This document shows, in pieces, positions 1 through 9,176 of a DNA stretch of 9,176 nt. Both the position numbers and the translations under genes were made by a program. Origin of the DNA: Candidatus Heimdallarchaeota archaeon (GTDB lineage Archaea > Asgardarchaeota > Heimdallarchaeia > Heimdallarchaeales > Kariarchaeaceae); NCBI GenBank assembly GCA_030149205.1, contig JASBSB010000002.1:1-9176 (forward strand), read 5' to 3'. Each line of letters begins with the position of its first letter. Position 1 is the stretch's first letter. The notes beneath the pieces were generated by a model. It worked only from the letters and a program-made list of their open reading frames with translations, was not told where the DNA came from and did no database searches.

Positions 1-140
1 GCACTAGTCAGCTCTGACCCCCTCCTATATATCTAGTTCGATTCTAGCCGAATCTCAAGCGAGGATCTCTCTCTTCTGAAAATCTTTCATCCATTGAGCC
101 TGAGGGCTCAATGCTTGTTCCAGGAGTTTTGGGACAAGCT
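1..140. mobile_element. Probable end of an insertion sequence (IS) interrupting the downstream gene
   Basis: Hand-counted GC is 66/140 (47%) for 1-140 against 14/60 (23%) for 141-200, with a sharp switch at 140/141. Read inward on the minus strand the end is AGCTTGTCCCAAAACTCC, which loosely resembles IS5/IS1182-type terminal inverted repeats. It abuts TTAA and fuses onto the middle of a protein-coding frame. No transposase is visible in the window. Confidence 0.45.
92..139. repeat. Two back-to-back hairpins
   Basis: CATTGAGCC-tgag-GGCTCAATG (92-113) is a perfect 9-bp stem. GCTTGTTCCA-ggagttt-TGGGACAAGC (113-139) is a 10-bp stem with one G:T pair. The second hairpin ends at the GC/AT junction. 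Confidence 0.8.
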
Positions 141-141
141 T

Positions 142-666
142 AAAAATATACTTGATGAAAATAATTACACCATTGAGTTTGCTTTACTAAATAATGACGA
201 AGGTGACACAATCCCCTATATGTTTGATTTGGTTGATGATAACTCCATTGACCAGTACTCAATTGACGAACTTAATAGTGGGATTTTATCAAGGGGTAAA
301 ATTACAGGAAAAATATTAAATTTACCCTTAGAAAGTGATTTAATAAACATAATTGAGTTTCATTTTCATGATAGTACAGATAATATAAATCGATCTCATG
401 AACCAATTATTTTCTTGTGTGAACTTCCAAACATAAAATTATTAAAAATACTTTCAAATTACGATAATAAAAATATTGGATTTATATTTAAACAAGGTTC
501 TATCCTCTCACATTTTTCCATTCTATTAAGAGAGAAAAATATTCCAGCAATTATTTGTGAAAACCAACTAAATATAAAAAATGAAACTATAGTGACTATT
601 GATGCGTTAAGTAATAATACAAAACAAGAGGATAGAATTAAATATGAAAACCTATCCATTAATTAG
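142..666 (+). pseudogene. 5'-truncated PEP-utilizing enzyme (dikinase-like) with C-terminal phospho-His swivel (mobile) domain
   Basis: GSILSHFSILLREKNIPAII matches the PEP-utilizer mobile-domain signature (G.LSH.AI..RE..IPAV); the His codon is at 511-513. SGILSRGKITGKI and IVTIDA match the start and end of that domain. IEFALL...PYMFD resembles the end of the PPDK/PEP-synthase ATP-grasp domain. The ORF-track start at 94 (TTG) lies in the foreign GC-rich segment, so the true N-terminus is missing. Confidence 0.7.
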
Positions 667-722
667 GCAATTTCCAAATTTTTACTAGATATCTTCATAA
701 ATTTTAACTCTACATTTAAGAT

Positions 723-1583
723 ATGGGAAAGGATGAGGCTAATCTTTCGGATAAACTTAAAAGTTTGAGTTATCATATAACAAAAGCATGTAATTTTCGT
801 TGTAGGTTTTGTTATGCTCATTTTTATAAGGTTCCAACAAGATTAAATAAGGAAAAAATGCTCCAAATAATACAATTATTAATGGAAAGTGGGACGGAAA
901 AGATCACATTCGCTGGTGGTGAGCCTACATTAGTACCATTTTTACCAGAATTAGTCAACTTTGCATCTGATATTGGTATGACAACTGTGATTATAACAAA
1001 TGGGAGTAAAATAAATCAACAATATTTAGATTTAATGAAAAATAAATTAGATTGGGTTGGGTTAAGTATTGATTCAGGGAAAGAAGATATTAATTTAAAA
1101 TTAGGTAGAGGTGATGGAGAACATGTAAAGAAAACAATACAAACCTCAAAATTACTTAGAGAAAATGGAATAATCGTAAAAATTAATACAGTAGTTACTT
1201 CTCTTACTTGGAATGAAGATATGAATTGGCTTATTGAGGAAACAAGACCTAAAAGATGGAAAGTTTTTCAAATGTTACCTATTAAGGGTGAAAATGATAA
1301 TGCCAACGATTTAAAAATTAATGACCAACAATTTAAGCATTTCAAACATCTAAACTCAAAAAGTAAACCTGTTATAGAATCTAACAATGATATGAAAGGA
1401 GGATATGTAATGATTGACCCTGAAGGACGTTTCTTTAATAATGATACCGGTGAACTAACACATGGGCCACCTATACTTAAAGTTGGTGTTGAAGAAGCCT
1501 TCAAATTTTCTAGGTTTTCATATGATAAGTTTTTAGGGAGAGGTGGAAATTATAAATGGAAATTTAAAGTTTTAAATAAATAA
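723..1583 (+). CDS. pVip: Viperin-family radical SAM enzyme (prokaryotic viperin; predicted ddhNTP synthase, antiviral)
   Basis: The CX3CX2C motif (CNFRCRFC, 789-812) is preceded by YH. Also present are FAGGEP, ITNGS, DWVGLSIDS, GRG, KINTVV, RWKVFQ, ESNNDMKGGYVMIDPEGRF and a C-terminal FLGRGGNYKW. These parallel vertebrate viperin motifs (NYHF, KINSV, RWKVFQ, ESN..M..SY..LD...RF, FLKRGGKYIW). Confidence 0.93.
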   Translation: MGKDEANLSDKLKSLSYHITKACNFRCRFCYAHFYKVPTRLNKEKMLQIIQLLMESGTEKITFAGGEPTLVPFLPELVNFASDIGMTTVIITNGSKINQQYLDLMKNKLDWVGLSIDSGKEDINLKLGRGDGEHVKKTIQTSKLLRENGIIVKINTVVTSLTWNEDMNWLIEETRPKRWKVFQMLPIKGENDNANDLKINDQQFKHFKHLNSKSKPVIESNNDMKGGYVMIDPEGRFFNNDTGELTHGPPILKVGVEEAFKFSRFSYDKFLGRGGNYKWKFKVLNK

Positions 1584-3972: not shown

Positions 3973-3990
3973 CGCGAAACCTTTTTATTT
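3973..3990 (+). promoter_or_regulatory. Archaeal-type BRE plus TATA promoter for herA-nurA
   Basis: CGCGAAA-cc-TTTTTATTT, with BRE-like CGAAA at 3975-3979 and TATA at 3982-3989, lies about 30-40 nt upstream of ATG 4019/4022. Confidence 0.6.
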
Positions 3991-4010
3991 GAGATATGAG
4001 AGGAAAAATT

Positions 4011-4015
4011 GGAGG
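4011..4015 (+). promoter_or_regulatory. Shine-Dalgarno (GGAGG) for herA
   Basis: GGAGG lies 6 nt before ATG 4022, which favours 4022 (or 4019) over the TTG at 3989. Confidence 0.6.
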
Positions 4016-4021
4016 AGAATG

Positions 4022-5962
4022 ATGCAGGAGTTTTTTAAATCTGCAACCTATCAAAATCACCCAATTAGGGTGCTTATTGATTTTTTAGCCAATGAGAACA
4101 GTCTTGAACAGGCAAAGCAGTACAATTTACAGAGATTTGTCGGCTACGCACTCAGCATTGGTTACGACAGCGTCACTATGATCACGTCTGACCCTTACAA
4201 GGTAAATGTGGGGGGAGTACCAAGGAACTCCTTCCTGATTATGGTACCAGATGACTTTGATGGAATACCACCACACTTTACACTTTTGCGGGTATTAGAG
4301 ACCACTGAGACTCCGCTTTCTCGTGAGGTGCAACAGACCTATTTCGAGTTACAGAAGAGATCTATGCCTGAGCTTGATATCTTTACCCAGTCTGAGCTTC
4401 AGTGGAGTGCATTGAAGGTGGAGGTTTTGGGTATGTTTTATCCAGGACAACAGACAAATGAGCTTGAGTTCTCATCTGATCTCAACAACTATCTATCAGC
4501 CCATAAGTATAGAATTTACTCACCAACCGAGGAGATTCTGGATCTGATCATTAACTCACAGGTTCAGAAGAGTGACCAGTTTCAGATTGGTAAGCTCAGG
4601 TTGACAGAGAACAACCTAAGAAAGAGGGATCAGAAGGAGATAGATGTCCCAGCCTATGTTGCCCCATCTGATTTCATGGGAACCCGTACTGCCCTGTTTG
4701 GAAAAACAAGACTTGGTAAGAGCAACACCATCAAGGTGATTATACAGAGCCTCATTGAGACAACAAAAAACAATAGAAATGTTGGACAGCTGATATTTGA
4801 TGTCAATGGAGAGTATGCAAATGATAACCCACAAAACAGGTCTCTCCCCTCGATTTTTCCTGATGTCTGTGAGGTTTACGCATTGACAAAGAAAAAGAAC
4901 ACTGAGTCAAAATTTCTGAAGTTGAATTTTTATGAGGTACCAGACAAATCACATGAGATTGTGAGTGAGCTGTTGAACAACGACAGAAAAACATCCTCTA
5001 GCTACGTGAAGAGCTTTATCACTGCAAACATTCCCAGCATTGAAGAATACAGAGAGCTGCAGAGGGGGGACAAGGTCAGGGCAAAGAGAAAGATTCTGTT
5101 CTACTGGGCGATTCTCAAAAAGTCAGGGTTTGATATTGATGAGATTGAACTGATTAAGAACACAGAGATAGAGTTTGACCCAAAATTCAACAAAGCAGTG
5201 AAGGAGGAACTCTATGGAGATGAGGAAGCACCGACAATTCACACACTGAGTGATCTTGTCTCATTCCTTGATAAACTTGCGGCATATATCAGAACCAACG
5301 GTCAGGAGAACCTAAAGAGCACAGGAAGCAAATCATTTCTTCTGGACAGCGATGATACTGCCTTGTTGGAGTTTCTGAATCCTAGGTCAGGAATCGGAAC
5401 GAGGTACCTACAGCCATATAAAGCATATCACGCAAAAAACGCAGGAGACTTTGTTAAAGAGGTAATTGAGAGTTTAAACAAAGGAAACACCGTGATAATT
5501 GATCTGGGTAATGCCCACCCCCTTCTCATGCAGTACTACTCAGAGTATCTCTCTCGTTCAATTTTTTCACATCAGGTGACGCTCTTCTCAGAGGATCAGC
5601 TTGGCGACAAATACATCCAACTGTATTTCGAGGAAGCACACAACCTCTTTCCAAATACAGAGACGAGCACAGTGGACATCTTTCGAAGAATCGCAAAAGA
5701 AGGGGCAAAGTACAACCTTGGAATGGTTTACTCAACACAGAGTGTCAGCACCATTCATCCAGACCTTCTAGCTCAGACAGAGAACTTCTTTGTAGCTCAC
5801 ATGTCATCTGAGCAGGAGACCAACGCACTTGGAAGGCTAAACGTGGAGTTTGTATCATCCAAAAATGACATTCTCAGACTTAAACGAAAGGGATTCATCA
5901 GAATGCTCACTAGGTCTCACAGGTTTGTTATACCGGTTCAAATAAGGAAATTCGGGGAGTAA
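4022..5962 (+). CDS. herA: HerA/FtsK-family ATPase (DUF87 helicase HerA-like, N-terminal HAS-barrel-like region)
   Basis: Walker A is GKTRLGKS (4700-4723). It also has LIFDVNGEY, VIIDL, Walker B LYFEEAH, RIAKEGAKY and YSTQS...LLAQTENFFVAH. The ORF track starts at 3989; the start is refined here by the SD. Confidence 0.9.
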   Translation: MQEFFKSATYQNHPIRVLIDFLANENSLEQAKQYNLQRFVGYALSIGYDSVTMITSDPYKVNVGGVPRNSFLIMVPDDFDGIPPHFTLLRVLETTETPLSREVQQTYFELQKRSMPELDIFTQSELQWSALKVEVLGMFYPGQQTNELEFSSDLNNYLSAHKYRIYSPTEEILDLIINSQVQKSDQFQIGKLRLTENNLRKRDQKEIDVPAYVAPSDFMGTRTALFGKTRLGKSNTIKVIIQSLIETTKNNRNVGQLIFDVNGEYANDNPQNRSLPSIFPDVCEVYALTKKKNTESKFLKLNFYEVPDKSHEIVSELLNNDRKTSSSYVKSFITANIPSIEEYRELQRGDKVRAKRKILFYWAILKKSGFDIDEIELIKNTEIEFDPKFNKAVKEELYGDEEAPTIHTLSDLVSFLDKLAAYIRTNGQENLKSTGSKSFLLDSDDTALLEFLNPRSGIGTRYLQPYKAYHAKNAGDFVKEVIESLNKGNTVIIDLGNAHPLLMQYYSEYLSRSIFSHQVTLFSEDQLGDKYIQLYFEEAHNLFPNTETSTVDIFRRIAKEGAKYNLGMVYSTQSVSTIHPDLLAQTENFFVAHMSSEQETNALGRLNVEFVSSKNDILRLKRKGFIRMLTRSHRFVIPVQIRKFGE

Positions 5963-5965
5963 GAG

Positions 5966-7291
5966 ATGCCATATCATAGCACTGGAAGGTTACCCGGAGA
6001 ACGAGCAAGCAAGCTTGGACACCTGGAGGTCATCAAGAGTGAACTGGTAAATGAGCTGATAGATTCCTTTGAATCTATCGAGGATCCACCCACAGCAGAA
6101 ATTGAAGGGGTGTCCTCTGAGAACTACACTTATTCCCCCATAAGCGATATTGTTGGTGATGCAAAGCCTCTCAATGTGGTCTTTGGAATAGATGGATCGA
6201 AACAGACAATCAAAGGCAGTCACAACAAGAGAAAGGAGATGTCATTCATCAAAACAGCCCTATTGAGAATTGATAAGTATGCACTGAACAAGATCAACAA
6301 AAGAAACCCTCATCCCAAACAGATAAAGGATGCACTGGAGAACTCAGCAGTGTATCATTCCACAGTCATCCCACTAAGAAATGTCAAACCTAGAACAATC
6401 GGGCTCTACAATGGGATCAGGCATATCATTTATGACTCAATCCGAGACAAGAGCCTTGACGATGAGATATACACCACCCTCAGATGGTTGATTTTTGAGA
6501 TGTGGGATGGAAAGGGAAAGGCAGAATCTGAAAAGTTCGACTGTCCATTCTGTAGAAAGGTCGAAGGAGTCTTAAGACAGGACAAGGAAAAAGGTGTATG
6601 TAAGAACTGCAACAAAGAGCTCTTGCTATCTGATTACCTTGCTTTTCATCTCGAGATGAGTGAAGATTTTGCCTCTGAGACTGTCGCATCATCATACATG
6701 CTCATCCATGAGACACTACTCCTATTCACTGCTGTCAGACACTTCTGGGAGAATGACAGGGATTACCTGAATGAGTGTCTGTTCGTTAAAGATGGGGGAC
6801 TCTATCTAAGAGCACACTACTCAAAGCTGGTTGCACCTATCAGAAGGTTCCTGCAATATGCAAAGGAAACCAATGTTCCCATCTTCATGATAGGACAGGA
6901 AAAAACTGGAATCTTCGTTGAATTTCTTGAATACTTTTCCAAAAAGATGGAAGATAACACCGTCTTTTTGCCAAAGGATGATTTCATCCAAGAGAAGATT
7001 CTCTCCAAACCAAATCTTAGTGGCCCTTATGGTAAGACTGGTAATTTCGGAGCAAAGCTGCTGGTTAAACTGAAGACTCATAATTTGGTTCTCAGTATTC
7101 CAACTGGAACTTTCACAAAAAATCCTGAACTAACTGATTTAATAGGGCTGGACAGAATACTTGCCACCATCCCAGAGCTGCTAAGCTTTAGGTATGAGAA
7201 TGGATTGCTCCCAATTGAGCTTGCTAATGGTATTGCCTCGCTCTCCACATATCCTTCTGCTAGAATCCTACAGCTGTTTTCAAATTTGTAA
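5966..7291 (+). CDS. nurA: NurA-family (RNase H-fold) nuclease with inserted Zn ribbon
   Basis: It has VFGIDGS and LFVKDGGL acidic NurA motifs, IGQEKTG, and a C-terminal LPIELAN..ASL. CPFC-x15-CKNC lies at 6542-6610. The gene starts 3 nt after the herA stop, indicating an operon. Confidence 0.82.
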   Translation: MPYHSTGRLPGERASKLGHLEVIKSELVNELIDSFESIEDPPTAEIEGVSSENYTYSPISDIVGDAKPLNVVFGIDGSKQTIKGSHNKRKEMSFIKTALLRIDKYALNKINKRNPHPKQIKDALENSAVYHSTVIPLRNVKPRTIGLYNGIRHIIYDSIRDKSLDDEIYTTLRWLIFEMWDGKGKAESEKFDCPFCRKVEGVLRQDKEKGVCKNCNKELLLSDYLAFHLEMSEDFASETVASSYMLIHETLLLFTAVRHFWENDRDYLNECLFVKDGGLYLRAHYSKLVAPIRRFLQYAKETNVPIFMIGQEKTGIFVEFLEYFSKKMEDNTVFLPKDDFIQEKILSKPNLSGPYGKTGNFGAKLLVKLKTHNLVLSIPTGTFTKNPELTDLIGLDRILATIPELLSFRYENGLLPIELANGIASLSTYPSARILQLFSNL

Positions 7292-8978: not shown

Positions 8979-9170
8979 TCAAGTCAAAGCTTCAGTAGAT
9001 GCTTTTAACAACTTAAGTAGTTGGTTGAATGTTAAAACCGTCTTACCCTCCTCAACCTGCTCTAACTTTTCTGGTTTAACTCCAATTTTCTTTGCTGCCT
9101 TATCTATATCCCACCCCATTTTAAGACGACTCCATGTCAATATTTTTGGATTAACTACAGAGTCTATCAT
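8979..9170 (-). pseudogene. XRE-family HTH, resembling the N-terminus of HTH-ImmA/IrrE (M78) metallopeptidase fusions; apparently truncated
   Basis: VNPKILTWSR...GWDIDKAAKKIGVKPEKLEQVEEGKTVLTFNQLLKL matches the VNP..L.WAR...G....AA...G.....L...E.G...PT..QL.KL pattern. The expected Y..P...F.L..PP continuation and the HEXXH domain are absent. GTAGGT just upstream may be an SD. Confidence 0.6.
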
Positions 9171-9176
9171 ACCTAC

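What the first reader, a model, noticed from the sequence alone, without database searches (positions are those of the whole stretch)
142..1583. Viperin paired with a dikinase-like phospho-His swivel protein: possible new viperin accessory phosphotransferase
Seen: the swivel-domain gene ends 56 bp before viperin on the same strand, and both share a very low GC (about 23-30% in sampled lines), suggesting one acquired cassette. The swivel domain is C-terminal with no TIM-barrel PEP-binding domain after it. Established: vertebrate RSAD2 sits beside the kinase CMPK2, some prokaryotic viperins neighbour nucleotide kinases, and ATP-grasp plus His-swivel enzymes without the barrel (e.g. rifampin phosphotransferase) phosphorylate small molecules. 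I do not know of this pairing being described. Inference: the intact enzyme could supply the NTP substrate or (re)phosphorylate ddh-nucleotides.
Basis: partly seen in the sequence, partly recalled or inferred. Interest (0 to 1): 0.75.

Follow-up and report, generated by a model that had tools for sequence, protein, structure and literature searches.

The report
Viperin with transferase-dikinase helper pair
The antiviral enzyme viperin is here the last gene of a three-gene cassette, with an NMNAT-like nucleotidyltransferase and an unusual two-ATP-site phospho-histidine dikinase (cut in two by a jumping gene in this genome); the trio recurs, sometimes as fused genes, in distant microbes and I found no paper describing it.

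Summary
A His-swivel ORF ends at 666, 56 bp before a bona fide viperin (723-1583), and both are very AT-rich.

The swivel ORF is only the last 174 codons of a roughly 635-aa gene. Bases 1-141 are the end of a multicopy IS. The missing 462 codons lie on another contig (C12), against the other IS end and in frame.

So the unit is NTase, dikinase, viperin.

The dikinase family is rare: 164 clusters among 1.84 billion representative proteins. Its middle domain is a second PPDK-type ATP-grasp fold, not a rifampin-type binding domain.

- In 25 of 26 informative loci the NTase sits next to the dikinase.
- Viperin is adjacent in 8 of 27 loci, spread over at least four separate clades of the dikinase tree.
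- Sister loci carry a MoaA-like radical SAM enzyme, or a DHH pyrophosphatase plus a membrane protein.
- Fusions link the parts: viperin-NTase, NTase-dikinase, dikinase-DHH and DHH-NTase.

The functional link is strongly supported. The chemistry (nucleotide supply, or a new ddh-nucleotide conjugate) is inferred. No searchable paper describes the trio. In this genome the dikinase is inactivated.

The parts
1..141 (.). Right end of a ~1084-bp IS element (IS4/IS5-type DDE transposase), which also forms the contig end
   Evidence: Bases 1-141 recur about 10 times in the genome at 90-100% identity, mostly at contig ends. Full copies lie at C2:371997-373080 and C2:2725-3812. The ends are inverted repeats, AAGCTTGTCCCAAAA... 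The 271-aa ORF matches PF01609 DDE_Tnp_1 at 40 bits. Contigs of the source run confirm the junction at 141/142.
142..666 (+). 3' fragment (174 codons plus stop) of the dikinase-like gene: the end of the second ATP-grasp-like domain, a linker and the C-terminal phospho-His swivel domain
   Evidence: PF00391 at 30.3 bits. It aligns to columns 462-631 of the family profile. It abuts the C12-encoded N-terminal half at the same alignment column. The rest of the gene is G000:C12:142-1529, minus strand (L022).
511..513 (+). Codon of the predicted phospho-carrier histidine (His585 of the reconstructed 635-aa protein, motif GSILSHFS)
   Evidence: This His is invariant in all 14 homologues (H590 of P0004). 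Its position was mapped.
667..722 (+). 56-nt AT-rich spacer (21% GC) between the dikinase stop and the viperin start
723..1583 (+). Viperin (pVip), 286 aa, apparently intact: CNFRCRFC cluster motif and AGGEPT SAM motif
   Evidence: NF038283 at 293.9 bits (cut-off 180), PADLOC pVip at 283 bits, PF04055 at 89.8 bits. It is 65-66% identical to the viperins of the Heimdallarchaeota LC_3 cassette (L023) and of the metagenomic locus L066.

Best explanation
The window holds the distal end of a horizontally acquired, AT-rich three-gene viperin cassette. The first gene is an NMNAT-like HIGH-motif nucleotidyltransferase (G000:C12:1526-2071/2131, minus strand). The second is a 635-aa dikinase built as ATP-grasp 1, a second ATP-grasp-like domain and a C-terminal phospho-His swivel (C12:142-1529 plus window 142-666). 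The third is viperin (723-1583). In this genome an IS element has cut the dikinase gene in two; the transferase and viperin look intact. Shown: the transferase-dikinase pair is a conserved module, and viperin is one of its recurrent, sometimes fused, partners. Inferred mechanism: ATP-grasp 1 uses ATP to charge His585. The swivel domain carries the phosphoryl (or pyrophosphoryl) group to a nucleoside or nucleotide held in the second ATP-grasp-like domain. The NMNAT-like enzyme joins a nucleoside 5'-phosphate to an NTP and releases pyrophosphate, which sister systems remove with a DHH/DHHA2 pyrophosphatase-like enzyme. Viperin performs the radical 3'-deoxy-3',4'-didehydro step on the nucleotide moiety, before or after coupling. 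The output would be an antiviral nucleotide analogue, either more ddhNTP or a ddh-nucleotide conjugate.
For: IS split:
- Bases 1-141 are a multicopy IS end.
- The only other PPDK_N fragment in the genome abuts the opposite IS end on C12.
- The two halves meet at one alignment column of 14 homologues. With the 6-bp AAAAAT duplicate removed, the length matches P0004 and P0005 exactly.
- 58 of 59 family-invariant residues are kept.

Transferase:
- It overlaps the dikinase start by 4 bp and has the GRFQPFHNGH and ISATSIR motifs.
- Its nearest solved relatives are archaeal NMNATs.

Context census:
- The transferase is next to the dikinase in 25 of 26 informative loci.
- Viperin scoring above the NF038283 cut-off is adjacent in 8 of 27 dikinase-ascertained loci.
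- These eight have varied gene orders and fall in at least four well-supported clades of the dikinase tree.
- I predicted viperin for two members of unknown context from their tree position, and both have it.

Fusions:
- Viperin-NTase: P0065-P0071 and P0073.
- NTase-dikinase: P0080, P0202, P0206.
- Dikinase-DHH/DHHA2: P0193, P0213, P0254.
- DHH-NTase: P0077, P0095.
- The two viperin-NTase fusions I looked up are both followed by a dikinase gene.

Structure:
- The full model matches rifampin phosphotransferase and PEP synthase over ATP-grasp 1.
- The middle domain alone matches HpeI 9goj_A (Z 17.1, 242 residues, rmsd 4.1) and the RPH ATP-binding domain (Z 14.6).
- Motif-level sequence echoes support an internal duplication.

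Background rarity of viperin: 0 of 14 control genomes score above the cut-off.
Against: No biochemical data exist for any member, so the substrate of each enzyme and the order of steps are inference. Most known pVips work alone or with P-loop NMP kinases, so the pair is not required for viperin chemistry. More loci pair the module with a DHH enzyme and a membrane protein (10) than with viperin (8), so the core function is not viperin-specific. The second ATP-grasp-like domain has lost the QxRP motif and may not bind a nucleotide. In this genome the dikinase is broken, so the cassette may be non-functional here. The C12-IS-C5 join is inferred from sequence continuity; no single contig spans it.
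Confidence: 0.7

Rival explanations
1. Substrate supply only. The dikinase is a functional analogue of CMPK2-type kinases. It turns NMP or NDP into the NTP that viperin consumes, or re-phosphorylates ddhNMP or ddhNDP. The end product is ordinary ddhNTP.
For: P-loop NMP kinases are the known viperin partners (12% of bacterial and 5% of archaeal viperins, bioRxiv 10.1101/2023.09.13.557418). A second nucleotide-type ATP-grasp domain fits phosphate transfer between two nucleotides. In L039 a thymidylate-kinase-like gene sits beside the dikinase where the transferase usually is.
Against: It does not explain the nearly invariant NMNAT-like transferase, its fusion to viperin, or the pyrophosphatase-like partner. 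No His-swivel enzyme is known to phosphorylate nucleotides.
Confidence: 0.25
2. Signal or other small-molecule module. The transferase, dikinase and DHH enzyme make or turn over a nucleotide-derived messenger or metabolite sensed by the membrane protein (TM plus DUF5919). Viperin loci are a secondary recruitment, and the product need not be an antiviral chain terminator (for example a nucleoside-antibiotic-type metabolite).
For: DHH plus TM/DUF5919 loci are the most common type. Partners also include HIT-like, MazG-like, methyltransferase, FAD-oxidoreductase and B12-radical-SAM enzymes, as in biosynthetic clusters.
Against: Neighbours are typical of defence islands and mobile elements: AbiEii, BrnA antitoxin, giant UvrD/SLFN-type and DEAD helicases, relaxases, and a HerA-like ATPase here. 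The adjacent radical SAM proteins score as true viperins, not merely viperin-like.
Confidence: 0.15
3. Chance neighbours: an unrelated PEP-synthase-like pseudogene fragment happens to lie upstream of a solitary viperin.
For: The gene is truncated in the window, and many pVips are single-gene systems.
Against: The same trio recurs across archaea and bacteria at 27-47% dikinase identity, and there are several independent fusion types.
Confidence: 0.02

Closest known systems
Prokaryotic viperins (pVips) with neighbouring nucleotide kinases; vertebrate RSAD2-CMPK2
   Same: A true viperin (NF038283) genetically linked to an ATP-dependent phosphotransfer enzyme, in a defence-type neighbourhood. The logic of an accessory enzyme acting on the nucleotide pool may be shared.
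   Different: The partner is not a P-loop NMP kinase. It is a His-swivel dikinase plus an NMNAT-like nucleotidyltransferase. The transferase, not a kinase, is the domain fused to viperin. No paper in the searchable corpus mentions this partner.
Rifampin phosphotransferase (RPH; PDB 5fbs, 5hv1) and other barrel-less small-molecule dikinases (HpeI, PDB 9goj)
   Same: An N-terminal PPDK-type ATP-grasp, a C-terminal phospho-His swivel domain and no TIM-barrel PEP domain. These are the best structural matches.
   Different: RPH's large rifampin-binding domain is replaced by a second ATP-grasp-like domain, so the acceptor is probably nucleotide-like. The protein is about 635 aa against 867 aa for RPH. 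Sequence similarity is confined to ATP-grasp 1.
PEP synthase / pyruvate phosphate dikinase
   Same: PPDK_N and PEP-utilizers domains, with the invariant GGK, RSS, DIEW and QxRP motifs and the swivel His.
   Different: There is no PEP/pyruvate TIM barrel (PF02896 not found), the swivel is at the C-terminus, and the ATP-grasp is duplicated.
Archaeal NMN adenylyltransferase (NadM; PDB 1f9a, 1ej2) and NadR (NMNAT plus ribosylnicotinamide kinase)
   Same: The transferase has the GRFQPFHxGH, NPF(T/S)xxER and ISxTxxR motifs and the length of archaeal NMNAT. A kinase-type enzyme paired with an NMNAT-type enzyme recalls the two-step NadR logic (phosphorylate, then adenylylate).
   Different: Scores are well below the NMNAT cut-offs (61.8 against 127 bits). 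The family has its own invariant residues and an insert, and it lies in defence-type rather than NAD-biosynthesis context.

Membership tests
Viperin / pVip (NCBIfam NF038283) | Whole-protein score above the curated cut-off of 180 bits | tested here: met
   293.9 bits; PADLOC pVip 283 bits.
Viperin / pVip (NCBIfam NF038283) | Radical SAM CxxxCxxC cluster motif and GGE SAM-binding motif | tested here: met
   CNFRCRFC at aa 23-30 and AGGEPT at aa 64-69.
Viperin / pVip (NCBIfam NF038283) | Converts an NTP to 3'-deoxy-3',4'-didehydro-NTP and protects against viruses | not testable with these tools
   Needs expression, LC-MS and plaque assays.
PEP synthase / PPDK | PPDK_N ATP-grasp nucleotide-binding domain | tested here: met
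   PF01326 at 85.3 bits on the C12-encoded half.
PEP synthase / PPDK | Phospho-His swivel domain with the catalytic His | tested here: met
   PF00391 at 30.3 bits. The His is invariant in 14 homologues and present in this gene.
PEP synthase / PPDK | C-terminal PEP/pyruvate-binding TIM barrel (PF02896) | tested here: not met
   The gene ends about 50 residues after the swivel His. PF02896 is absent from this gene and from all close homologues.
Rifampin phosphotransferase (RPH) | Order ATP-grasp, substrate domain, C-terminal His domain, without a TIM barrel | tested here: met
   Model of P0004 and its PDB matches.
Rifampin phosphotransferase (RPH) | RPH-type rifampin-binding middle domain | tested here: not met
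   The middle domain folds as a PPDK-type ATP-grasp: 9goj_A Z 17.1, and 5hv1_A residues 1-319 Z 14.6. It does not align to the RPH rifampin-binding region.
NMN adenylyltransferase (NadM; NF002243, TIGR01527) | HxGH and ISxTxxR nucleotidyltransferase motifs | tested here: met
   FHNGH and ISATSIR in the C12 gene; both are conserved across 12 homologues.
NMN adenylyltransferase (NadM; NF002243, TIGR01527) | Score above the curated family cut-off | tested here: not met
   61.8 against 127 bits, and 53.3 against 181.2 bits.
IS4/IS5-type insertion sequence | DDE transposase ORF between terminal inverted repeats, in several copies | tested here: met
   PF01609 at 40 bits; inverted ends and about 10 copies.
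IS4/IS5-type insertion sequence | Target-site duplication | tested here: inconclusive
   A 6-bp AAAAAT flanks this insertion, but no duplication is evident at the internal copy in C2.

The most novel reading that the evidence does not exclude
The triad makes a new kind of antiviral nucleotide: a 3'-deoxy-3',4'-didehydro nucleotide joined through a pyrophosphate bridge to a second moiety (an NAD-like or cap-like ddh-dinucleotide), rather than a plain ddhNTP. The dikinase would then be the first His-swivel enzyme that shuttles phosphate between two nucleotide-binding ATP-grasp sites. The same transferase-dikinase core, combined with other modifying enzymes (MoaA-like and B12 radical SAM enzymes, methyltransferase, HIT, MazG), would define a wider toolkit for making modified nucleotides in prokaryotic immunity.
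Probability: 0.25. Interest if true: 0.9.

Novelty: new variant of a known kind. Interest (0 to 1): 0.72.

Why it matters
Viperin is one of the few immune enzymes shared by bacteria, archaea and animals, and its only described genetic partners are P-loop nucleotide kinases and TPR proteins. A second, evolutionarily independent and repeatedly fused partner set suggests that some viperin systems do more than make ddhNTP. They may secure their substrate by an unprecedented dikinase route, or convert the product into a new antiviral molecule. The closest relative of this cassette is in an Asgard (Heimdall-group) archaeon, the lineage from which eukaryotic viperin is thought to derive. The dikinase also shows a domain architecture not represented among solved structures. 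Intact members are available for direct testing.

Tried and rejected
- Rfam and tRNA scans of the window found nothing.
A 5-sequence alignment worked.
- The viral-contig scan found only ATP-grasp-only relatives and no full-length family member. This is a pattern-limited search and does not prove absence.
- Forty relatives of the genome (same genus, family and order) had only ordinary PEP-synthase-type paralogues, and no full-length member was found in those searched.
- Complex prediction of viperin with the transferase gave no verdict, with a score of 0.00.
- In the sequencing-run search only the probable source run holds the stretch, and no RNA holder is listed, so nothing can be said on expression. 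Contigs of that run show no intact, IS-free allele, but contigs drop rare variants.
- Literature searches for viperin with cytidylyltransferase, PEP-utilizing, phosphoenolpyruvate synthase, dikinase, or adenylyltransferase plus phage returned nothing relevant. A search for DUF5919 returned no paper.
- The Atlas look-up of the TM/DUF5919 protein gave only unnamed clusters.
- I considered a 2-bp TA target duplication for the IS and rejected it: it would put the two gene halves out of frame, whereas the 6-bp model restores the exact length of the homologues.

Full report
**1. The observation**

The window is a whole 9176-bp contig (C5) of a 3.3-Mb, 12-contig archaeal genome. The archaeal SSU model scores 1198 bits.

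The frame carrying the swivel domain ends with a stop at 664-666. A 286-aa ORF starts at 723, leaving a 56-nt spacer on the same strand.

The downstream ORF is a true viperin:
- NF038283 scores 293.9 bits, against a cut-off of 180.
- PADLOC pVip scores 283 bits.
- It has the CNFRCRFC and AGGEPT motifs.

The upstream ORF matches the PEP-utilizers mobile domain at 30.3 bits (cut-off 23.1) and ends about 50 residues after it, so there is no TIM barrel.

GC is 25.9% for the fragment and 29.7% for viperin. The genome mean is 35.5% and the rest of the contig is about 40%.

**2.

Bases 1-141 recur about ten times in the genome at 90-100% identity, mostly at contig ends. Full copies define a 1084-bp element with inverted ends (AAGCTTGTCCCAAAA..). 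It carries a 271-aa DDE transposase ORF, PF01609 at 40 bits.

A genome-wide search for PPDK_N found four ordinary PEP-synthase-type genes. It also found one fragment at the start of contig C12, which begins with the opposite IS end.

That fragment (C12:142-1529, minus strand, 462 codons, PF01326 at 85.3 bits) starts with a normal N-terminus (MIKLIKNF...GNKADWL) and runs into the IS.

In an alignment with 14 full-length homologues, the C12 half ends and the window half begins at the same column:
- A 6-bp AAAAAT is present on both sides.
- With one copy removed, the sequence reads ...NEFKNILDENNY... and has exactly the length of the two closest homologues.
- The reconstructed 635-aa protein keeps 58 of 59 family-invariant residues, including the swivel His (His585, window 511-513).

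The insertion therefore looks recent. An independent assembly of the probable source run confirms the IS-gene junction, and no IS-free allele was seen. The C12-IS-C5 join itself is inferred, because no single contig spans it.

Upstream on C12, overlapping the dikinase start by 4 bp, lies a HIGH-motif nucleotidyltransferase of roughly 181-201 aa. It has the GRFQPFHNGH and ISATSIR motifs. Its nearest families and solved structures are archaeal NMN adenylyltransferases, but its scores are below their cut-offs.

The unit is therefore transferase, then dikinase, then viperin. It is 3.4 kb at 28.6% GC, in the lowest 0.7% of genome windows. None of 40 relatives searched has a full-length dikinase homologue. 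The closest cassette is in Heimdallarchaeota LC_3, with 47% identity for the dikinase, 51% for the transferase and 65% for viperin.

**3. The dikinase family**

A word-based search found about 16 clusters of 611-649 aa. A profile of the family-specific middle domain, run against 1.84 billion representatives, found only 164 clusters at E <= 1e-10, so the family is rare.

An AlphaFold model of P0004 (pLDDT 83.7) matches rifampin phosphotransferase, PEP synthase and HpeI through the first ATP-grasp.

The middle domain was modelled alone (pLDDT 78.6) and is itself a PPDK-type ATP-grasp:
- HpeI 9goj_A: Z 17.1, 242 residues, rmsd 4.1.
- RPH ATP-binding domain: Z 14.6.
- PPDK: Z 9.3.
- Generic ATP-grasp ligases follow at Z 6-8.

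Profile-profile comparison of the two domains is weak (E 1.3e-3). It does align VAIRSS with RYGIRS, IIQ with IIQE, and GxGExLVSG with KGHFxxKG. The HMMs of each domain also cross-hit the other.

The architecture is ATP-grasp, ATP-grasp-like, His-swivel. This differs from PEPS and PPDK (swivel followed by a TIM barrel) and from RPH (a rifampin-binding domain).

**4. Gene context**

I examined 27 distinct dikinase-ascertained loci.

- The transferase lies directly upstream, or is fused, or lies within 3 kb, in 25 of 26 informative loci. In L039 a thymidylate-kinase-like gene takes its place.
- A viperin scoring above the NF038283 cut-off is adjacent in 8 loci: this genome, L023, L066, L068, L025, L035, L037 and L048. 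Their orders vary: downstream, convergent, upstream with overlap, 1 kb away, and fused.
- Two loci have a MoaA-like radical SAM gene in the same position (L030, L046).
- Ten loci carry a DHH/DHHA2 enzyme resembling family II pyrophosphatase. Eight loci carry a membrane protein with a DUF5919 domain just upstream of the transferase: six of these ten plus two truncated contigs.
- Other loci carry HIT-like, MazG-like, FAD-oxidoreductase, methyltransferase, TPR or B12-radical-SAM genes.

On a maximum-likelihood tree of the dikinases, the viperin-linked members fall in at least four well-supported clades, interleaved with the DHH type. From the tree I predicted viperin next to two members whose context was unknown (P0005, P0014). 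Both have one, each at 240 bits.

Fusions tie the parts together:
- Viperin-transferase: seven close clusters plus the divergent P0073.
- Transferase-dikinase: P0080, P0202, P0206.
- Dikinase-DHH/DHHA2: P0193, P0213, P0254.
- DHH-transferase: P0077, P0095.
- Methyltransferase-dikinase: P0323.

The two viperin-transferase fusions I looked up are each followed by a dikinase gene.

Viperin is rare: 0 of 14 control genomes score above the cut-off. Adjacency in 30% of loci is therefore far beyond chance.

Neighbouring genes are of the defence-island or mobile-element kind: AbiEii, BrnA, giant helicases, relaxases, and a HerA-like ATPase in this window.

**5. How it probably works**

Shown: a conserved genetic and physical (fusion) link among viperin, the NMNAT-like transferase and the dikinase. 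The catalytic motifs of all three are intact, apart from the IS.

Inferred:
- ATP-grasp 1 charges His585 from ATP.
- The swivel domain delivers phosphate to a nucleoside or nucleotide in the second ATP-grasp-like domain.
- The transferase joins a 5'-phosphorylated nucleoside to an NTP and releases PPi. The pyrophosphatase-like partner of sister systems fits this step.
- Viperin dehydrates the ribose.

Two versions remain open. The first is substrate supply or recycling, ending in ddhNTP. The second is product diversification to a pyrophosphate-bridged ddh-nucleotide.

A third possibility is that the core pair makes a signal or metabolite unrelated to chain termination. It cannot be excluded, because the DHH and membrane-protein loci are the most common type.

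**6. Known or new**

Papers on viperin evolution and archaeal immunity describe only P-loop NMP kinases (12% of bacterial and 5% of archaeal viperins) and TPR proteins as partners. The Asgard defence paper does not mention neighbours. No paper in the corpus combines viperin with dikinase, PEP-utilizing, phosphoenolpyruvate synthase, or adenylyltransferase plus phage.

Earlier notes of this scan describe other viperin-like enzymes with different transferases, and unrelated PPDK_N-transferase pairs beside glutamate dehydrogenase. None describes this family.

I rate it a new variant of a known kind: a viperin system with an undescribed two-enzyme accessory module, whose dikinase has a new domain architecture. 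In this particular genome the module is broken by an IS. A second viperin is encoded at C11:15843-16631.

Noticed in passing
window 3989-7291: A HerA/DUF87-type ATPase of 657 aa (PF01935 at 59 bits; weak matches to anti-phage HerA models) is followed 3 bp later by a 441-aa protein with no family match. This may be a defence or repair pair.
   Followed up: no
window 9043-9176: The last ~134-181 bp of the contig recur at the ends of contigs C6 and C11 (97-100% identity). The 9-kb contig is therefore bounded by repeats on both sides and its place in the chromosome is unresolved.
   Followed up: partly
G000:C11:15843-16631 (L089): The same genome has a second viperin (NF038283 at 303.9 bits). Earlier notes say it sits in a viperin-kinase-helicase operon, so the genome keeps a viperin locus apart from this IS-hit cassette.
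   Followed up: partly
G000:C2:371997-373080 and about 10 other sites: The IS has a markedly higher GC than the 35% genome (bases 1-141 are 47% GC). Its copies are 90-100% identical and account for most contig breaks, which suggests a recent burst of transposition.
   Followed up: partly
L024:1964-2854, L032:6506-7375, L044:4388-5311, L045:5895-6701, L026:3074-4501: A recurrent protein of about 270-300 aa has N-terminal membrane helices and a C-terminal DUF5919 domain (fused to DUF4062 in L026). It sits just upstream of the transferase in the DHH-type sister systems, in the position viperin occupies in L037. Its function is unknown.
   Followed up: partly
L030:4549-5421 and L046:2472-3428: MoaA-like radical SAM proteins (97-109 bits on archaeal MoaA, below cut-off, and not viperin) take the viperin position next to the transferase-dikinase pair. 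They may be a different nucleotide-modifying radical enzyme.
   Followed up: no
L094:1611-3509: In one metagenomic locus the dikinase is encoded as two ORFs (339 and 276 aa), split inside the second ATP-grasp-like domain. This is either a natural split or a frameshift.
   Followed up: no
G000:C12:3551-3745 and 4739-4915 (L022): Two paralogous small CxxC...CxxC zinc-ribbon proteins of about 60 aa lie in the AT-rich, ORF-poor stretch upstream of the cassette.
   Followed up: no
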